DNA from: Gekko japonicus
Lineage: Eukaryota
Assembly (NCBI RefSeq): GCF_001447785.1
Contig: NW_015173687.1
Span: 499,362-563,361 of the forward strand
Direction of reading: 5' to 3'
Length of the DNA stretch: 64,000 nt
In this document: one piece after another, positions 33,201-61,162 of the stretch
Layout of the letters: each line of letters begins with the position of its first letter
Numbering within the stretch: the first letter of the stretch is position 1
Notes under the pieces: model-generated
Told to the model about the DNA's origin: nothing
Seen by the model: only the letters and a program-made list of their open reading frames with translations
Databases searched by the model: none
Program-made: the position numbers and the translations under genes

Positions 33201-33658
<458 letters not shown>

Positions 33659-33759
33659 CCCTAAGAGACCAGCTAATGTGGCAAACCGTGGCATCATGGG
33701 AGAATGGGCAGCGTATGGGGAGATGGGGTAGAAATCATGATTAGGATGTGTCAGAGGTC

Positions 33760-35866: not shown

Positions 35867-36065
35867 TTAGATTAGAAATAGGGAAAACACAGGTTCAGAT
35901 TCCCATTCTGCATGAAGCTCACTGGACCCATCACTTATTCTTAACCTAATTTACCTCACAAAATGGAGAAGGGAGAATCGCATATGCTACCTTGAACTCC
36001 TCGGGCGATAGGTGGAGAAAAATCTAACAAATTAAATTAAATTAAACCCAGGTATCTCCCATCTA

Positions 36066-36396
36066 GGACCGCAGTGGCTTAGAGGTTAAGACACTGAGTT
36101 GCAGACCGGAAGGTTGGTAGTTTGGTGGTTTGAGACCCTAGTGCTGCATTGACAGAGTCTCTGGCCCCAGCTCCTGCCAACCTAGCAGTTCAAAAACAAG
36201 AAATTGCAAGTAGATAAATAGGTACCCCTTCGGTGGGAAAGTAACAGTGTTCCGTGCACCTCAGCATTTAGTCATGCTGGTCACATGACCACGGAAATGT
36301 CTTCGGACAGCGCTGGCTCTTCAGCTTGGAAATGATGAGCACCACCCCCTAGAGTCGGATTCAATTATCTCTTGAGCAAGGGAAACCTTTACCTTT
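36066..36396 (+). mobile_element. Sauria SINE
   Basis: Same family; near-TSD TATCTCC(C/T)ATCTA. Confidence 0.85.
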
Positions 36397-37921
36397 TATC
36401 TCCTATCTATTACATTTCTGTTCTTCAAGAACTGCAGGGATGTGTAGGTGGGGTTATCCCATTTTATCCTCATACATGTGAGTAGATTAACACGGAACGG
36501 AATACCAGGAAACCACTGAATGCCAGGCTAACAGCAGAGCTGAATAGATGAGGAGTCTGTACACTCAAAAACTTTGGCAGACCATCTTAATCTTTGGAAC
36601 TGGCAGATCTGCTTTTTTAAAAACAAGCTTTCAGTGGCCAAGAATACCAAATTAATATGTGCAGCATCCTGTATGAAAGATGGCACAGCCCCTGAGCAAC
36701 CAGTCAAATAAGTGTTTCTGTGGAGGTTTCATAGGGAATACCCCATCAAATAATTTTCAGCTCATTCACTTCAAAGGGTTATTTTTATTATTAACTCATC
36801 ACCACACACAGGTTTCTCTTACAAGCCAGCATGCTTATTTTCACATCTTAAGGCCTGATCTGATAGATCCATTCTTCAGCACCGGTGTGTATCTTACATT
36901 CTACTAAGTGTCTAAACACCCTGGTAATACACAGCATTCCAGAATGCTCTACACAGCCATGTGGTAAGACTCAGGTCCCAAGACCAGGCTCGCAGAATAG
37001 ATTAGTTTCAGGTATTCAGGGCACTGCAGCAATCTCTACAGTTAGTAGGCAGATCTACTTGGATGACTGGAGGTAAAGTTTTGTTCAGTTCTCCAGTAAG
37101 ATAGATTTTTTTAGGGAGGGGGTGTTTCTTGGGTCTTTCATTGGTAGACTGTGCTTCCTCGGAGTTCTTAGAGTTTTCAAACCGCTTCGTTCCAGTTGTG
37201 TGGCCTCAGAGACAGACCTCTTTGTCTGTGTAGCTGAATAACCCTCACTGTGACTGGCAGCAGCTCTCAAAGCATGTCTCCAACCCTGCTACTAGAAATT
37301 CTTTAACCTGGAGACGTTGGGGGCTTAACACTGGGCACCCTGCACAGTCTTCTACTGCAGTAATGTGCTCCTCTTCCCAACTGCATTGTGTAAGTACAGA
37401 ATGTAGGACAGCCTGAGAATAGCAGTCCCTGCTTGTTCGTTCGTTCGTTTAAATAAAAGCAAGCTTCCAGTCCACATCATTGCAAAGTTAGGCTTGAAAG
37501 TCAGTAGCCAATACCTGGTGAAACCTCAGAAGCAACAGGTGGACTGAGCAGAACCTCCAGTGTTTGAAAGGTGCAACATCTGGGGCTTACAATAGTTTCA
37601 GAATTCTGCAAATAATGTACATGACATTTCTTTTGCGATAATTAAAAAAACGATCACACAGAACACCTCCCATTTCTCCCCTTGAATATTAAAAATGAAC
37701 CTTTGACCCTGAACCTACCAAGAACCATTGCTTCTCCTTCCTATACTGAAGGTTCAGTGGAAAATACTGAGCTTGCTCTAAAAAAAGGTTCAAGTTGTTA
37801 GCACTTCCCAAGAAGCCGAGCATTTGTACGTGCTTGGTATACACTTGCAAACCCCCCCCCCCCAACCTCAAGCCAAGCAGCTGGTATGGAAAATGAATGC
37901 TGAAGGAAGATCTGTACCAAT

Positions 37922-38533
37922 CTAGGCACTGCGTGGCAACCCAAGAAACACAGCCACAGGCAGCATTACCACCACAAATAGAACGGCGGCAGCACATATC
38001 ATACTGGGATAGTTTTCCAACAGGAGACGACCCATCTCCCTACACACAGACCTGGGGGGATGAGTGCTAATAAAGTTCTGGGGTCGATTGTCTTGGGAGG
38101 TGGCTTTGAACAAGTCCACTGTCACAAGAATCTTCACGGCCTCTTCCTTAGTGTCCCCCGGTGGCCTTTTCAGCCAGCACAGGCGAAATCCATCTATCCA
38201 GACCTCTTCAAGCTCTCGCATCCATGGAGGAAACTGCTGGACGACTTCCATGTTAGCTGGAAGGCTGGGGATCCCTTCTTGGGGGAGAGGGATGCTCTTC
38301 CGGCAGAGGGGGCAGCAAAACAGCTGGTTTGGCTTCAGGAAGGCACACAGCCTGGCCAGGCACTCCAAGCAGAAGGTATGAGAGCACGGCAAAAGCAAAG
38401 GAGTGTTGAACACATTGTTATAGGCAAGGTAGCAAATGGGGCACTCGAGAGTGGATGCCTGTGTTTCCTCTTGCCCAGTTTGGTTTGCAGGAACAGGAGA
38501 AACATCCATTGCATACCTTTCCCCTTTGTCCAT
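37922..38533 (-). CDS. RNF223/RNF225-like RING-HC transmembrane E3 ligase (RNF183 family), 203 aa, single exon
   Basis: ECPICYLAYNNVFNTPLLLPCSHTFCLECLARL...CPLCR (C3HC4); family motif VWIDGFRLC; C-terminal TM segment MICAAAVLFVVVMLPVAVFLGL. Confidence 0.88.
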   Translation of the reverse strand: MDKGERYAMDVSPVPANQTGQEETQASTLECPICYLAYNNVFNTPLLLPCSHTFCLECLARLCAFLKPNQLFCCPLCRKSIPLPQEGIPSLPANMEVVQQFPPWMRELEEVWIDGFRLCWLKRPPGDTKEEAVKILVTVDLFKATSQDNRPQNFISTHPPRSVCREMGRLLLENYPSMICAAAVLFVVVMLPVAVFLGLPRSA

Positions 38534-41500
38534 TTCAGTAGCTGCTTAGAACCAACTGGGACCAGAGCTCCCTTCCAGGGGTGATTCTTCTCCCTCCTTC
38601 AGTGGCATTGCTCAAATGATAATCTGCTGTATTCCTTCAATGGCCTGTCCTGCTTCTCTCACAAGTGGTGGTGATGGTGGTCTCACCAACCCCAAATTCA
38701 GATGGCCAACAAAATATCCACCTCTTCTAGCAACACTTCTGAATTCTCAGGCAGTAGTGTGAAGGTCTTATGAGGCTCTTCCAAGGTGCATGTTACATCC
38801 CAGAACTCCTTTGAAGTTCAGCTCTTTCAGAAGCCAAGGCTACCTCTGACTGCTCTAAGAATCTCTGAAGCTCTGTGGTCCAATTCTCAAGCCCAGATCC
38901 CGGGCCTCCGATCTGTTGGAGAGTCTTGGCAACAGATATTTAACTTCAAATGTTTCTTTTGGCTTGAGCCAATGAGTTCCTCTCTAAGCAACCAGGACTT
39001 GTCTAAGCTAGCTTGTCCAGTCTGGCATGACAAAGCAGAGAGAGAATGAGCAAGCACAAACTCTAGGAGGGTTGGCGGGTTGTTTATGACAGGAGCCAGT
39101 TATTCCTAAACAGAAAGGTGCAGCCAGTCCTAAGGAGTACACATGTGAGTTTACACTGTTTGTCACATTTGCACATTAAGTGTATCCCTAGAGATGACAT
39201 GAGGAAAGACGCCCTAAGCATATGTCTAAGGGAAAATGCAAAGTAGTATGCATTATATATGTTTTAAAAAGCCAGTTTCCAGCATATTGTCCACACAACT
39301 AGCACAACCAAGCAACAAATCCCACAGTGGGCCTGTATAGATGAATGAGTAGAGCCATGCTGCTAGAAGCAGGTCTCAAAATGGTGAAGGCCACTTTTCT
39401 ACAAGTGGGTGTTCACTACTTGCTCTTACAATGAACAATTAAGTGCTGGACTTGGGGATGCTGTTGGGTCTAAGGCAAAACCAGCTCCAGCCATTAGCAA
39501 AGCTGGAACTGAGGCCTGGTCCACATGTGAAGCAAAATTAGGGGAATAGAAGCTCCCCCCTTTCAATGCACAGGCTCTCCATCCCATCTTTTCCAGATGG
39601 ACTGTACAACTTGTGACCCACCAACCAAAGGCACCCCCCCCCCCCGCTGAAAGATTTCCCTGGTTTTCCCTGTAACTACAAAAAAAGGTGGGCATTTGTC
39701 AAGCATTTGACTAACCTCAAAACAAAGCTGGAGGAACACTGCCTAGGGAGACAGTGTTGTGTAACAGACAATGCTAGATTAGCATCTTCGAGACCAAGTT
39801 CAAGCCACCTCTAGGACTGAAAGCTCATTGAAGAGGGTTGCCAACTCCAGGTTAGGTTAGGAAATTCCTAAAGATTTGGGGGTGGAGCTTTGGAAGAGTA
39901 GGATATAATGCCAGAGAATCCACCCTCCAAAGCAGCCATTTTCTCCAGGGGAACTGATCTCTACGGTCTGAAGATCAGTTGCGATTTGGAGGGATCTCCT
40001 GGCCTAGTTGGAGGTTGGCACCCCTGTCACTGGGTGCCCTTACACCAGTTGTTCATGCTGTCTCTCAGCCTAACCTACCTCACAGGGGTATTGTGAAGAT
40101 AAAATGAGAAATAGAAAACCACGTGGACTACTCTGAGCTCCTTGGAGGGATAAAAATGTACCAGTCAAAAATTTACAGTTGTGCAGGCCTTTGGGATGAA
40201 GGGGCAACTCACAACACCTGACTCACACTGAAGGTCTACCTACTCAGGCTGGTTGCAGTCACAAGGGTCTAAGGCACAGCACCCAAGATCCTTTTAACTG
40301 GAGGTGTTATGGCCTAAATTGGGACCTGGAGCACACATGCATACATGACCTGTGCTACACCAAATCATACATGACGGCGGGCGGCGGCAATAGGTAAGTA
40401 TTCTTTGTTCCGGGAGCAGCTCTCCGGGATACGAAGCAGAGAAAGGTCCTTTCCCAAGGGACATATGAGGGATCAAACCTGGCACCTTCTGCCCACAAGG
40501 CAGGTGTTCCATCAAAGCCCCTTCCCATTAGCCTACATTCTGCAGAGGAAGTACTCGACCTGTTCTAGCCTCTGCCAATAAAACATGCTGGAATTCATAA
40601 AACACTGCAGCCGGTCATAAATCCTAGCAAAGTGTGTACTCAACAGAAACTCCCCAAGGATACCAGATAAACATGAGCAATCAAAGGCTTCACCCCCAGC
40701 CACCACGCCAGGTCGAGCCAGGGCCCAGGTTACAGCAAACACACAGCTGGCAGCGAGCGATAAGAATCCCTTCCTTGTGTAACAGGCTATTTGGGGGCTT
40801 CCCCGCTTGGGTGCCTTTGCAGGAAATAAATGTGGTGCCTGGAGGTCCATCACGGCCATAAACCAGCCAACAAGTCCTGCATTCTGGCACCTCTTTCATG
40901 ACTGCAAAGTCTGCTCAGAGGCAACCAACAGGGCCCTGCCGATAAACAGCCAAGATGTACGGGGCCTCAGTGGCAGGGAACTATGATGGAAGCCTTCTGC
41001 AAGAAACCAAAAGGCCAGAGCTGCAGGGATTCCATGGAAGGAAGGAGGATGGGATGAGGCTGTTAATTCAGCATCTCACAAATCTCCAGTTTTCCTTAAA
41101 AAAAAAAAAAGAGAGAGATCTAGCCCTTATGAGTACAGGTTTGGATTTTATTTTTGTGAATGCACCAGGAATCGAAAAGCAGCCCTGTAGGTCCTCTTCC
41201 ACTCTCCGCACGGAGGACATTCCCAGTGTACCCGACAAAGGGTCAGCCTGGCCTAGTCCTTTCAGCATCTCCATGGCAGCCTCGGCCCGCCCTCTTCTGC
41301 CAGCCTTCCACTGCTCTCCCTCTTCTCTCCTCGAGCGGCAGGTCGTTGCCCCGTAAACAACAGCTGCCTACCAACCTCACAGAGCAGAACACCAAGCCTT
41401 GCTCAAGGGACAAGGTCCCTTGGCGATGGAAGGAAGAGGGTGAATACCTCAATTTCAGCAGTGCCAGCCAAGGAATCCCTGCCCCCTTCAGAGCTGGAAT

Positions 41501-43144
41501 TGGCCTCCTCTCCAGGTGAACTCTGCTCCTGCCAGCAGTGGAAACATCAAAACAAAGAGGAAACGGGGAGGAAAAGGGGAAGACAGAATGGAGGGGCAGG
41601 CAGCAGCGTCTGCCACTCGGCTCCTTTGTGCCTGCCAAGCAGCCGCCGTCTTCCCTGGTATCCAGGCAGGATGAGGCCTCACAGACCACGGCCCACTTTC
41701 ATGGTAAGTTTTATGGGGTAAAAGCAAAAAAACCAGGGTGGGGTTGGGGAGGGGCGGGTTGAGGAAATCATGAGGTGGCCGTGTTGTCGGACCCACTCCA
41801 AGCATGATAAGGCGTCTGGCTGGGGTGAGGCACTGATCCAGCTAGCCCTTAGCAATACGAGACTGTCAATGGACATGGTACTTTACAAAAATGAGAAACA
41901 AGAGAGGCCATGTCTCTGCCCCTCACGATTACCAACTAAACACTCCAGAGGGGCAGGAATGAGAGTCTGGTGTAGCAGAGAATCCAGAAGAATCTTACAA
42001 GACTTTGTTAGGACAGGAAGTGTTTGGGACTACAGCCCACTTCAGCAGGTACATGAAGTATCCCCACACGCGTACCAAAGGGGGAGAAGTCCTTACCAGT
42101 TTGTCATTTCGTTGGCTTTTTGACTCCATTATTTATTTTTATTTTGCCATGAGTTTGTGTGTACTTGCCAACTGAAGACACACTTCACATATCTGCTGAA
42201 GGGTCTCTATTGCAATCATGATCTATTTTGCACATGCTCAACAGTAGTGCTTTTTAGTACTTGTGCATTCCAAGGGTCCGAAAACTGGTTCCACAGCTGA
42301 ACTCAAAAGAAGCCCTGTCTCCTGTTCTCCTCGCACAAACCACAGGACCAGAAGTAATTGTTCCATCCACCTCCACAAATGAAATATATCACTTAGCTGT
42401 CAGCATCTATTGAATTTTTTACACAATACCTGGATTGCCTCAGCAGCTGCCCTTGGTGTGAGATGGCTTCTTAACTCCTTGTGGGCATTTTGAAATGTCT
42501 GAACATTATTTTGGAACCAGGATATTCTTTTTTTTTTTTTTTTTTTTTAAATAAACTTTGTTGACTAGCTTATTTCTGGTATTCAGCATTACACAATGTA
42601 AAGAATAGTTACCAGGCTGTCTTTAAAGAAGGGATCATACACATTCATAAAGGATTATTATTAACAAAAAAACCCTTATTATTCATAGTGCACTTCAACA
42701 CTGGGCAAATTTGCATGACTTCTGATAGAATTTTTGCTTACTGTGGATTTTTATTTACTGTTTTGCATATTTTGGGTTTTGATGGCTACAGGGAGGAGCA
42801 AGGCACGGTGGAAAGCACTGAAGCTCTGTCTCCCCACCCCCACCCCAAAGGAAATTGTCAGCTGTCCCTTCTCAGGTTTCTGCAGGCATTGGCTGCATAC
42901 CTTCAGGCATAGCCATACAGGCTACAGACTTTTAAAAAATAGTTCAGAATTGCACAATACTGGTACTAGAGATCGCTTACCACGTTCTGCACTCCTTTTA
43001 TAACCACACTATAAAGTTCTGTGTATGTACATCAGTGCTTTATGTGAACAGTTCATCAAACCTCTAGTGACTTTTTTGTCTTTCCCAGGTAGCAGCCTAG
43101 ATTTAATAAGTCTGTGGCCCAGGCTGGGCTCCTGTCCCATCAAC

Positions 43145-43708
43145 ATGACTGAGAAGCAGAGCCAAGGACTAGCAGCCGACTGTCCGGTTTGCTGGAACCC
43201 CTACGACAACACCTTCCGCACACCCAAGGTGCTCCAGTGCCAGCACTCCTTCTGCATCGAGTGCCTGGCTCACCTGAGTCTGGTGTCCACAGTGCGGAAT
43301 CGGCTGCAGTGCCCGCTCTGCCGTCACCCCACCATGCTCCCCTCTGACCAGACAGTTACTGAACTTCCCACTAACGATGCAGTCTTGCGGCTGCTGCGCT
43401 TGGAGCCCAACCACATCATCCTGGAAGGCCGGCAGCTGTGCCTCAAGGAACAGCGCAAGAGCAGATACTGCTTGCGCCAGCCAAGGGTCTACACCCTTGA
43501 CCTGGGCCCAGAGACGGACTCCAGCACTGTAAGCCGCCAGGACCCGACTACAACCACCACCCTGCCCAATAGCTCTCCACCGTGGAACTGTGTTCGTGAC
43601 CCCCAACTTCGCATTTTCACCTACTTAATGGCCATCATCTTAAGTGTGACTTTGCTACTCATTTTCTCCATCTTCTGGACCAAGCAAATCTTTTGGGGCA
43701 TCGGTTGA
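43145..43708 (+). CDS. RNF183: E3 ubiquitin ligase RNF183, 187 aa
   Basis: MTEKQ...CPVCWNPYDNTFRTPK...HSFCIECLAHLSLV...LLRLEPNHIILEG...IFTYLMAIILSVTLLLIFSIFWTKQ. Acceptor tttcccag ends at 43088, so ATG 43025 is probably intronic. Confidence 0.95.
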   Translation: MTEKQSQGLAADCPVCWNPYDNTFRTPKVLQCQHSFCIECLAHLSLVSTVRNRLQCPLCRHPTMLPSDQTVTELPTNDAVLRLLRLEPNHIILEGRQLCLKEQRKSRYCLRQPRVYTLDLGPETDSSTVSRQDPTTTTTLPNSSPPWNCVRDPQLRIFTYLMAIILSVTLLLIFSIFWTKQIFWGIG

Positions 43709-58633: not shown

Positions 58634-58823
58634 CTGCAGGGGGGGGGGAAAACCCCTCTCAGCACAGGCACAAGAGTGAACATGGTTTACCCACCCACCT
58701 TCTCGAATGGTGTTACCACAAGATGAACTATACACGGGAGAAAGGAATTCTCTCTTCTCTGCCTCGTGCTTTGCTTTGAAAAATAGAAAAAAAACCCATC
58801 CCTTTTGCCTGATGGTAAGGATG

Positions 58824-61162
58824 GAAAGGTTAACAGAGTTTTGTCAAGAGAACACACTGGTCATAGCGAACACCCTTTTCCAACAACCTAAGAGGCGACT
58901 CTACACATGGACATCACCAGATGGGCAACACCGAAATCAGATTGACTATGTAATTTGCAGTCAAAGATGGAGAAGCTCTATCCAGTCAGTAAAAACAAGA
59001 CCTGGGGCTGACTGTGGTTCAGATCATGAGCTACTCATTGCAAAATTCAGACTTAAACTGAAGAAAATTGGGAAAACCACGAGGCCATTCAGGTTTGACC
59101 TAGATCGCATCCCTGATGAATATACAGTAGAGGTGAAGAATAGATTCAAGGGTCTAGATTTGATAGATAGAGTACCTGAAGAACTATGGACGGAGGTTCG
59201 TGACATTGTACAGGAGGCAGCAATCACCACCATCCCAAAGAAAAAGAAATGCAAGAAAGCAAAGTGGCTGTCTGATGAGGCTTTACAAATAGCAGAGGAA
59301 AGAAGGAAAGCGAAAGGCAAAGGCGAAAAGGAAAGATTTACCCAACTGAATGCAGATTTCCAGAGAACAGCAAGGAGAGATAAGGAGGCCTTCCTGAATG
59401 AACAGTGCAAAGTAATAGAAGAAAACAATAGAATGGGAAGGACTAGAGATCTCTTCAAGAAAATTGGAGAAATCAAGGGAGCGTTCCATGCAAAGCTGGC
59501 CATGATAAAGGACAAAAACGGTAGGGACCTAACAGAAGCAGAAGAGATTAGGAAAAGATGGCAAGAATACACAGAAGAACTATACAAGAAAGACCTCGAT
59601 GTCCTTGACAACCACGACGGTATAATCACTGACCTCGAGCCAGACATCCTGGAATGTGAAGTTAAATGGGCCTTAGAAAGCATTACTAACAACAAAGCTA
59701 GTGGAGGTGATGGTATCCCAGCTGAGCTATTCAAAGTCTTAGAAGATGATGCTGTTAAAGTTCTGCACTCCATTTGCCAGCAAATTTGGAAAACGCAACA
59801 GTGGCCACAGGATTGGAAAAGATCAGTATACATTCCAATCCCAAAGAAGGGCAATGCCAAGGAATGTTCAAACTATCGCACAATTGCACTCATATCACAC
59901 GCTAGCAAGGTCATGCTCAAGATCCTACAAGCTAGGCTTCAACAGTACATGGATAGAGAACTGCCAGAAGTACAAGCTGGGTTTCGAAGAGGTAGAGGAA
60001 CGAGAGATCATATTGCCAACATTCGCTGGATTATGGAGAAAGCAAGAGAGTACCAGAAAAATATCTACTTCTGCTTCATTGACTATGCTAAAGCCTTTGA
60101 CTGTGTGGATCACAACAAACTATGGCAGGTCCTTAAAGAGATGGGAGTACCAGACCACCTCACATGTCTCTTGAGAAACCTGTATAAGGGCCAAGAAGCG
60201 ACAGTTAGAACCGGATACGGAACAACTGATTGGTTCAGCATAGGAAAAGGAGTACGACAAGGATGTATACTGTCACCTTGCTTATTTAATATATATGCAG
60301 AGTACATCATGCGAAATGCTGGCCTGGATGAATCACAAGCGGGAATTAAGATTGCTGGGGAAAAGATCAACAACCTCAGATATGCAGATGATACCACTCT
60401 AATGGCTGAAAGTGAAAAGGATCTAAAGAGCCTCTTGCTCAGAGTAAAAGAGGAGAGCGCAAAAGTGGGCTTGAAGCTCAACATCAAAAAAACTAAGATC
60501 ATGGCATCCGGCCCCATCACTCCTTGGCAAATAGAAGGGGAAGTCGTGGAAGTAGTGACAGACTTCACGTTCCTGGGATCCCAGATCACCGCAGACTGTG
60601 ACTGCAGCCATGAAATTAAAAGACGCCTGCTCCTTGGGAGGAAAGCGATGGCGAACCTAAACAGCATGATAAAAAGTAGAGACATCACCCTGCCAACAAA
60701 AGTCCGCATGGTCAAAGCAATGGTATTCCCAGTAGTCATGTATGGCTGTGAGAGTTGGACTATAAGGAAGGCCGAGCGCCGAAGAATAGATTCTTTTGAA
60801 CTATGGTGCTGGAGAAGACTCTTGAGAGTCCCTTGGACTGCAAAAAGATCAAATCAGTCAATCCTAAAAGAAATCAACCCTGACTGTTCCCTGGAAGGCC
60901 AGATAATGAAACTGAAGCTCAAATACTTTGGCCACCAAATGAGAAGGGAGCACTCACTGGAGAAGACCCTGATGCTGGGAAAGATTGAAGGTCAAAGAAG
61001 ACGGGGACGGCAAAGGATGAGATGGTTGGACAGTGTCATCGACGCAACGAACATGAAATTGAGCCAACTTCAGAGGACAGCGGAAGACAGGAAGGCCTGG
61101 CGGGAGCTGGTCCATGGGGTCGCAAAGAGTCGGACTCGACTGTGCGACTGAACAACAACAAC
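58824..61162 (+). mobile_element. 5'-truncated RTE-BovB LINE with uninterrupted endonuclease C-terminus plus RT ORF
   Basis: YTWTSPDGQHRNQIDY, SDHELL, FIDYAKAFD, GVRQGCILSP, NNLRYADD; (CAA)n tail; TSD AAGGATG at 58817-58823 and 61163-61169. Confidence 0.95.

What the first reader, a model, noticed from the sequence alone, without database searches (positions are those of the whole stretch)
37922..38533. Extra intact RNF183-family RING-TM ligase head-to-head with RNF183
Seen: clean 203-aa ORF with a C3HC4 RING, a VWIDG..LC motif (as in RNF223/RNF225; IILEG..LC in the neighbouring RNF183) and a tail-anchor TM helix. It is highly diverged from RNF183, so it is not a recent duplicate. I recall no such gene between human WDR31 and RNF183. 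Inference: an old paralogue kept in reptiles and lost in mammals, forming a divergently transcribed and possibly co-regulated membrane E3 pair.
Basis: partly seen in the sequence, partly recalled or inferred. Interest (0 to 1): 0.7.

Follow-up and report, generated by a model that had tools for sequence, protein, structure and literature searches.

The report
RNF183's ancient neighbour, missing from humans
This gecko gene encodes an intact RING-finger protein with a predicted membrane anchor; it belongs to its own old lineage, found from sharks to platypus and linked to RNF183 from bichir to lizards, was likely lost in marsupials and placentals, and likely tags membrane proteins with ubiquitin as RNF183 does, so it is an unnamed but ordinary member of a known family.

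Summary
The ORF is real (minus strand, 38533-37922, 203 aa). It has a complete C3HC4 RING with the linchpin Arg, a small beta module and one C-terminal membrane helix. Contigs from runs that also hold spliced RNF183 cover the ORF and a 1.1-kb 3' UTR ending at an AATAAA. The gene (X) forms its own clade (99/97), apart from RNF183, RNF223 and RNF225, each of which has a separate gecko copy. It is far older than reptiles: members occur in sharks, rays, bichir, one teleost, salamanders, frogs (duplicated), lizards, turtles, crocodilians and platypus. In 20 of 23 testable species X and RNF183 lie on records of identical length, so the linkage is ancestral. 'Lost in mammals' is wrong as stated: a platypus protein that NCBI names RNF183 is X. 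No therian, bird or snake X was found, but birds also gave no RNF183, so only therian loss is reasonably supported. The orientation is head-to-head, but the 5' ends are at least 2.1 kb apart across a repeat with no CpG island, so a shared promoter is unsupported. Verdict: an unnamed, auto-annotated ('RNF223-like') member of the RNF183 family; modest interest.

The parts
37922..38533 (-). Coding sequence of gene X in one uninterrupted ORF (203 aa; 195 aa from M9)
   Evidence: covered by contigs 37853-38331 and 38333-38930 of run X11
38300..38443 (-). C3HC4 RING, residues 31-78, with I33, L62, P75 and linchpin R78
   Evidence: Pfam; 8 ligands plus P75 and R78 in 68 of 68 clade members; aligns to TRIM2 C63-R64
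38111..38284 (-). Post-RING loop, short helix and three-strand beta module (residues 84-141), including VWIDG..LC at 38177-38203
   Evidence: model mc08f5c685deb, strands 111-114, 117-122, 135-140; pLDDT 94-97 over residues 81-120; G115 and L118 in 68 of 68
37943..37999 (-). Predicted tail-anchor membrane helix, residues 179-197, with a 6-residue tail
   Evidence: hydropathy; helix 175-198 in the model
36784..37921 (-). 3' UTR of X with a minus-strand AATAAA at 36789-36784
   Evidence: contigs end at 36789, 36795, 36801 and 36818; only such signal in 36001-37921
38534..39001 (-). Transcribed stretch upstream of the ATG (5' UTR or unspliced precursor; true start unknown)
   Evidence: X11 contig to 38930, X9 piece 38851-39001
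39793..40314 (.). High-copy interspersed repeat between the two 5' ends
   Evidence: bins with hundreds of partly fitting reads and many variants
41354..41703 (+). RNF183 non-coding first exon (5' limit is the furthest contig end)
   Evidence: GT..AG joint 41703 to 43089 in X1, X13 and X9-X12
43145..43708 (+). RNF183 coding sequence (187 aa)
   Evidence: 63% to primate RNF183; RNF183 clade
33499..33738 (+). Last exon of the WD40 gene upstream (WDR31 by position; name recalled), tail-to-tail with X
   Evidence: exon frames; X11 contig 33496-33738; gene order

Best explanation
Gene X is an intact, transcribed RING-finger gene of its own jawed-vertebrate lineage within the RNF183/RNF223/RNF225 group, and its product is likely a tail-anchored, cytosol-facing E3 ligase that would bind E2~ubiquitin through its RING and ubiquitinate neighbouring membrane proteins for removal, as RNF183 does. 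Shown: the ORF, the RING ligands and linchpin Arg, transcript coverage, the separate clade, and same-record linkage with RNF183 from bichir to lizards. Predicted: the membrane helix and the RING-plus-beta-module fold. Inferred: origin by local duplication in an early cluster of RING-TM genes (X, clade Y, RNF183); insertion into the ER and traffic to Golgi or lysosome; substrate choice through X-specific surface residues (L46, C63, F65) and the beta module; loss in therians after the split from monotremes. Substrates and tissue are unknown.
For: Catalytic anatomy: 8 zinc ligands, P75 and R78 in 68 of 68 members; I/V at 33 in 68 of 68. R78 aligns with TRIM2 R64, whose mutation ablates activity (PMC9732051 passage). 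The model (mean pLDDT 84.2) matches TRIM23, TRIM2 and TRIM32 RINGs (Z 11.1, 10.8, 10.4; rmsd 2.3-3.2; 74-79 residues aligned). A C-terminal hydrophobic helix occurs in all 11 clade members tested. Clade support is 99/97 (21 of 21 X rows, 74-row tree) and 97 under a mixture model (35 rows). Linkage: identical record length for X and RNF183 in 20 of 23 species where both lengths were given, with locus tags 2, 3 and 5 apart in Hymenochirus, Ascaphus and Lerista. Expression: with zero depth in 39092-39815, 40178-40901 and 42350-42711. RNF183 is in ER, Golgi and lysosome and sends Na,K-ATPase beta1 and DR5 to the lysosome (PMC7313026).
Against: No activity, localisation or substrate data exist here. 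X has lost the lysine that is invariant in 38 of 38 RNF183/223/225/Y rows (L46 in 19 of 21 X rows), and it has Met at the position of TRIM2 F81, a ubiquitin contact; either could weaken or change E2 use. It diverges faster than RNF183 (gecko vs crocodile 48% against 73%). Runs X9-X12 are not on record as RNA and contigs show no strand; raw reads gave only a few reads on the ORF. 2 of 3 coding variants seen in X11 are missense (P68S, E107K). Three species did not match by record length (both Xenopus, Ascaphus). Its sister group is unresolved.
Confidence: 0.72

Rival explanations
1. X and RNF183 are a co-regulated functional pair: one promoter or enhancer drives both, and X acts as partner or regulator of RNF183 rather than on its own.
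For: Divergent orientation; linkage kept from bichir to lizards; both covered in runs X1, X9-X12, X13, X15; neither was found in birds.
Against: The 5' ends are 2.1-2.4 kb apart with a repeat between them; CpG o/e is 0.39 or less; no NFAT5-type site lies in 38534-41703, and the window holds 17 against 15.7 expected. The runs were selected with both genes in the query. Therians keep RNF183 without X (34 named rows, none). Linkage is also what a tandem duplication leaves.
Confidence: 0.13
2. X is an active RING-TM ligase but works mainly in ER quality control or on soluble partners at the ER (K48, proteasome), not in lysosomal sorting.
For: Family members also do this: RNF183 on Bcl-xL and IkBa, RNF186 on occludin by K48 chains (PMC7313026). 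X has no conserved sorting motif that I could show; one [DE]xxxLL (residues 166-171) is in the gecko protein.
Against: The review describes the family as lysosome-localised. Nothing here separates the two routes.
Confidence: 0.1
3. X is the relocated 1:1 orthologue of a named human gene (RNF223, RNF225, RNF222, RNF186 or RNF152).
For: NCBI calls most members 'RNF223-like', one shark copy 'RNF223' and the platypus copy 'RNF183'; it shares the VW..G..LC motif with RNF223.
Against: The gecko has its own RNF223 (sister to sloth RNF223, 100/89), RNF225 (with crocodile RNF225, 100/100), RNF183 and RNF152 (Pfam RNF152_C), plus genes I read from recall as RNF186, RNF182, RNF208, RNF224 and RNF222. The lowest X member scores 172 bits on the X profile and the best RNF223 143. 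No named mammalian RNF225, RNF222, RNF186 or RNF227 sequence was in the tree.
Confidence: 0.03
4. X is a decaying or non-functional open frame.
For: The gecko protein is absent from the protein collection; raw-read depth is below 1; two missense variants were seen.
Against: 68 intact members from sharks to platypus, 79-84% identity among geckos, invariant RING; transcript-like coverage with a poly(A) signal.
Confidence: 0.02

Closest known systems
RNF183 (tail-anchored RING-HC E3; 'RNF183 family' of PMC7313026 and PMC4971459)
   Same: N-terminal C3HC4 RING, shared ..G..LC beta motif, one C-terminal membrane helix, similar length, uninterrupted CDS, same locus.
   Different: Separate clade since before sharks and bony fish split; 35% identity over 106 aa; L46/C63/F65 in place of K/S/V; faster divergence; not found in therians; no functional data.
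RNF223
   Same: Highest-scoring paralogue on the X profile (143 bits); shares W112, G115, C119, G87, P89, P102; source of the automatic name 'RNF223-like'.
   Different: Own clade (100/99) with a separate gecko copy on another contig (L002); longer N-terminus and a longer tail after the helix.
RNF225 and the unnamed clade Y ('RNF225-like')
   Same: Same architecture; Y lies next to X in a shark (chiPu_0012547/8) and a newt (NDU88_011819/24).
   Different: Carry S-[IV]-R-F in place of E-V-W-[LI]-D-G; no Y copy in this window or in about 120 kb of flank.
TRIM23 / TRIM2 / TRIM32 RING domains (closest solved structures)
   Same: RING core plus the following loop and helix (Z 10-11); linchpin Arg.
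   Different: No B-box or coiled coil; no N-terminal helix in the model, which TRIM2 needs for its four-helix dimer; membrane-anchored.

Membership tests
RNF183 family of RING-TM E3s | N-terminal C3HC4 RING | tested here: met
RNF183 family of RING-TM E3s | One or two predicted C-terminal transmembrane helices | tested here: met
   hydropathy; model (prediction only)
RNF183 family of RING-TM E3s | Sequence kinship with RNF183/RNF223 | tested here: met
   X, RNF223 and RNF183 group at SH-aLRT 87, and with RNF225/Y at 92; Atlas features 0.96-0.97 to RNF183-like clusters, using homologue P0004
RNF183 family of RING-TM E3s | Tissue-restricted expression | tested here: inconclusive
   Covered in some runs and barely in others, but tissues are not given
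RNF183 family of RING-TM E3s | ER/Golgi/lysosome localisation | not testable with these tools
   needs imaging
RNF183 family of RING-TM E3s | E3 ligase activity | not testable with these tools
   residues are compatible (R78, P75, I33); no assay
RNF183 orthologues | Falls inside the RNF183 clade | tested here: not met
   AU test rejects the platypus X inside RNF183, p = 0.005
RNF223 orthologues | Falls inside the RNF223 clade | tested here: not met
   the gecko RNF223 is L002
RNF225 orthologues | Falls inside the RNF225 clade and carries its S-[IV]-R-F motif | tested here: not met
   the gecko RNF225 is L003; no mammalian RNF225 in the tree
Bidirectional-promoter gene pair | Divergent orientation | tested here: met
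   X on -, RNF183 on +
Bidirectional-promoter gene pair | Start sites within about 1 kb, usually on a CpG island (criterion recalled) | tested here: inconclusive
   Covered 5' ends are 2.1-2.4 kb apart with no CpG island, but contigs cannot fix start sites and X may have an unseen first exon

The most novel reading that the evidence does not exclude
X and RNF183 are interchangeable survivors of an ancient epithelial transporter-clearing cluster that was sorted reciprocally in mammals: monotremes kept X (the platypus 'RNF183' is X, and no true platypus RNF183 appeared) while therians kept RNF183 and wired it to the hypertonic renal medulla; birds and most teleosts lost both. X would then be a natural control for what RNF183 gained in the therian kidney.
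Probability: 0.15. Interest if true: 0.55.

Novelty: new member of a known kind. Interest (0 to 1): 0.32.

Why it matters
It adds a jawed-vertebrate orthogroup, hidden under automatic names, to a small family of tissue-specific membrane E3 ligases tied to kidney osmotic stress and bowel disease. It also corrects a database label: a platypus protein named RNF183 is not RNF183. The RNF183 locus was once a cluster of at least three such genes. Frogs, including Xenopus, carry X, so its function can be tested. It is a 'cryptic paralogue' story of a familiar type, not a new mechanism.

Tried and rejected
Homodimer prediction for residues 20-145 with zinc: no answer (score 0.00, alignment not used). 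NFAT5/TonE consensus (recalled pattern): 17 sites against 15.7 expected, none between the genes. Search for a clade-Y remnant in the window and about 120 kb of flank: none. The sequencing-run search listed no holder on record as RNA; raw reads X13-X15 gave too few reads for strand or start sites. Fold searches were filled by the RING, so the beta module was not tested alone and I make no claim that its fold is new. dN/dS could not be computed because no orthologue DNA was available. The overlapping + strand ORF 38060-38584 was not pursued; it is the antisense of the conserved frame. WDR31 read-through as the source of the coverage is unlikely, since 36558-36788 has almost no cover in the runs laid. 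Ten literature searches listed no paper on this gene; subscription journals and supplementary gene-loss tables were not searched and could list it under a LOC id. Earlier-findings look-ups by place and by sequence were empty.

Full report
Observation. The ORF is on the minus strand, 38533-37922, 203 aa with no internal stop. It carries a C3HC4 RING, the VWIDG..LC motif at residues 111-119 and one strongly hydrophobic 19-mer at 179-197 followed by six residues. It is 35% identical to the neighbouring RNF183 over 106 aa. The window is from a gecko, judged by its named relatives. Gene order is HDHD3 (+), a PRY/SPRY gene (-), a WD40 gene (+), X (-), RNF183 (+) and a PRP4-domain gene (-). This matches the BSPRY-WDR31-RNF183-PRPF4 order in horse and pig tables, where no named gene lies between RNF183 and WDR31 (passages of PMC11350783 and PMC9375371; such lists may omit LOC genes).

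Expression. Runs X9-X12 (one study, kind not on record) give contigs that join RNF183 exon 1 to exon 2 at a GT..AG intron (41703 to 43089) and show zero depth in three flanking unique stretches, so they behave as RNA. In X11 three contigs cover 36789-37797, 37853-38331 and 38333-38930, that is the whole ORF except one variant base. X9 and X10 end at 36795 and 36801, and X1 from another study ends at 36818. All stop just short of the only minus-strand AATAAA in 36001-37921, at 36789-36784. X12 and the raw-read runs X13-X15 cover X only sparsely. Contigs give no strand, level or tissue.

Range. The single-sequence search gave 37 proteins, the 36-sequence profile 66, and the index-free profile search over 1.84 billion representatives listed its best 150. 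Members come from geckos, lacertids, skinks, turtles, crocodilians, platypus, salamanders, many frogs (two lineages), four sharks and rays, bichir and reedfish, and one teleost (Aldrovandia). Most are auto-named 'RING finger protein 223-like'. No named hit is a bird, therian, snake, iguanian or anguimorph. This absence needs care. The gecko's own protein is not in the collection, the searches are word-limited, unnamed Logan rows could hide taxa, and the RNF183 search (best 120 of 682 rows listed) also showed no bird or platypus RNF183. Therian loss is the best supported: 34 named therian RNF183 rows against no X.

Identity. In a 74-row tree (LG+G4, 182 columns) the 21 X rows form one clade (99/97), apart from RNF183 (99/93), RNF223 (100/99) and RNF225 plus clade Y (100/99). 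A 35-row mixture-model tree without most long branches agrees (97). The sister group is unresolved. The gecko genome holds separate RNF223, RNF225, RNF183 and RNF152 genes, and further paralogues that I label RNF182, RNF186, RNF208, RNF222 and RNF224 from recall only. The platypus protein XP_039767902, named RNF183, falls in the amniote X clade (100/99). It scores 226 bits on an X profile built without it and 91 on an RNF183 profile, and forcing it into RNF183 is rejected (AU p = 0.005).

Synteny. I compared the record lengths printed for X and RNF183. Of 23 species with both lengths, 20 match exactly: two lizards, two crocodilians, axolotl, 14 frogs and bichir. The three mismatches are Xenopus laevis, X. 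tropicalis (RNF183 on a 3.3-kb scaffold) and Ascaphus, whose locus tags are nevertheless 3 apart. Close linkage is shown in Lerista (a 214-kb scaffold, tags 5 apart) and Hymenochirus (tags 2 apart). Most matches show only the same chromosome, and orientation outside this gecko was not seen. A third gene, clade Y, has the next locus tag in a shark and is 5 tags away in a newt; it also occurs in turtles and crocodile, but not in this window. An earlier scan note on a cartilaginous fish (e1-9963629) reads the locus the same way. I saw it after these results and do not count it as support.

Mechanism. All eight zinc ligands, P75 and R78 are invariant in 68 of 68 members. R78 aligns with TRIM2 R64 (numbering checked against F20, S24, L39 and H40 in the paper), the linchpin whose mutation ablates activity (PMC9732051 passages). 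A model built on 132 sequences (pLDDT 84) shows the RING, a short helix, a three-strand module and a long C-terminal helix; the RING part matches TRIM23, TRIM2 and TRIM32. The model lacks the N-terminal helix of TRIM dimers. RNF183 sits in ER, Golgi and lysosome, is kidney-specific under NFAT5, and sends Na,K-ATPase beta1 and DR5 to the lysosome (PMC7313026, parts 1-2 of 6 read); RNF223 is counted in the same family (PMC4971459 passages; PMC8551701 abstract only). By inference X is a tail-anchored E3 acting on membrane proteins, with different specificity: it has L46, C63 and F65 where the paralogues have K and other residues, and diverges faster than RNF183 in 10 of 11 pairs (equal in bichir).

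Co-regulation. The genes are divergent, with ATGs 4.6 kb apart. Covered 5' ends are at 39001 or less for X and 41134-41354 for RNF183, with a high-copy repeat between them, no CpG island and no TonE site. A shared enhancer is possible but not shown.

Verdict. A real, conserved and likely functional gene that appears undescribed in the searched literature (ten searches, see Tried and rejected) but is already predicted in many genomes. It is a new member of a known kind. Interest 0.32.

Noticed in passing
L008 = G000:C13977:647508-648149 (-), about 105 kb beyond RNF183: Another uninterrupted RING-TM ORF (about 215 aa) on the same contig; long branch, in no named clade.
   Followed up: partly
P0095, P0103, P0133, P0146, P0153 (clade Y): A second unnamed paralogue ('RNF225-like') beside X in shark and newt, also in turtles, crocodile and teleosts; not found in this gecko.
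   Followed up: partly
P0025 (XP_039767902): A platypus protein named RNF183 by NCBI belongs to clade X; no true platypus RNF183 among the 120 rows listed.
   Followed up: yes
No bird and no teleost true RNF183 among the listed rows; teleost proteins named RNF183 (P0068, P0318) group with RNF225.
   Followed up: partly
P0013 and P0277: A lizard X and a lizard RNF183 both come from Logan records of 4310 bases, possibly one contig holding both genes.
   Followed up: no
frog hits: Frogs carry two divergent X lineages on the same chromosome; Ranitomeya P0007 has two RINGs in one predicted protein, probably a fused gene model.
   Followed up: partly
window 58707-61151 (+): Open 814-aa ORF of endonuclease/reverse-transcriptase type, an RTE-like LINE by recall, just beyond the PRP4-domain exon.
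   Followed up: no
L024, L025; L005, L006, L009: The gecko has two related two-helix RING genes (RNF186-like by recall) and three RNF182-like genes.
   Followed up: no
window 37982, 38215, 38332: Coding variants in run X11: V184V, E107K, P68S.
   Followed up: partly
window 38608, 38791, 38798 (-): Three upstream ATGs lie in the transcribed stretch 5' of X.
   Followed up: no
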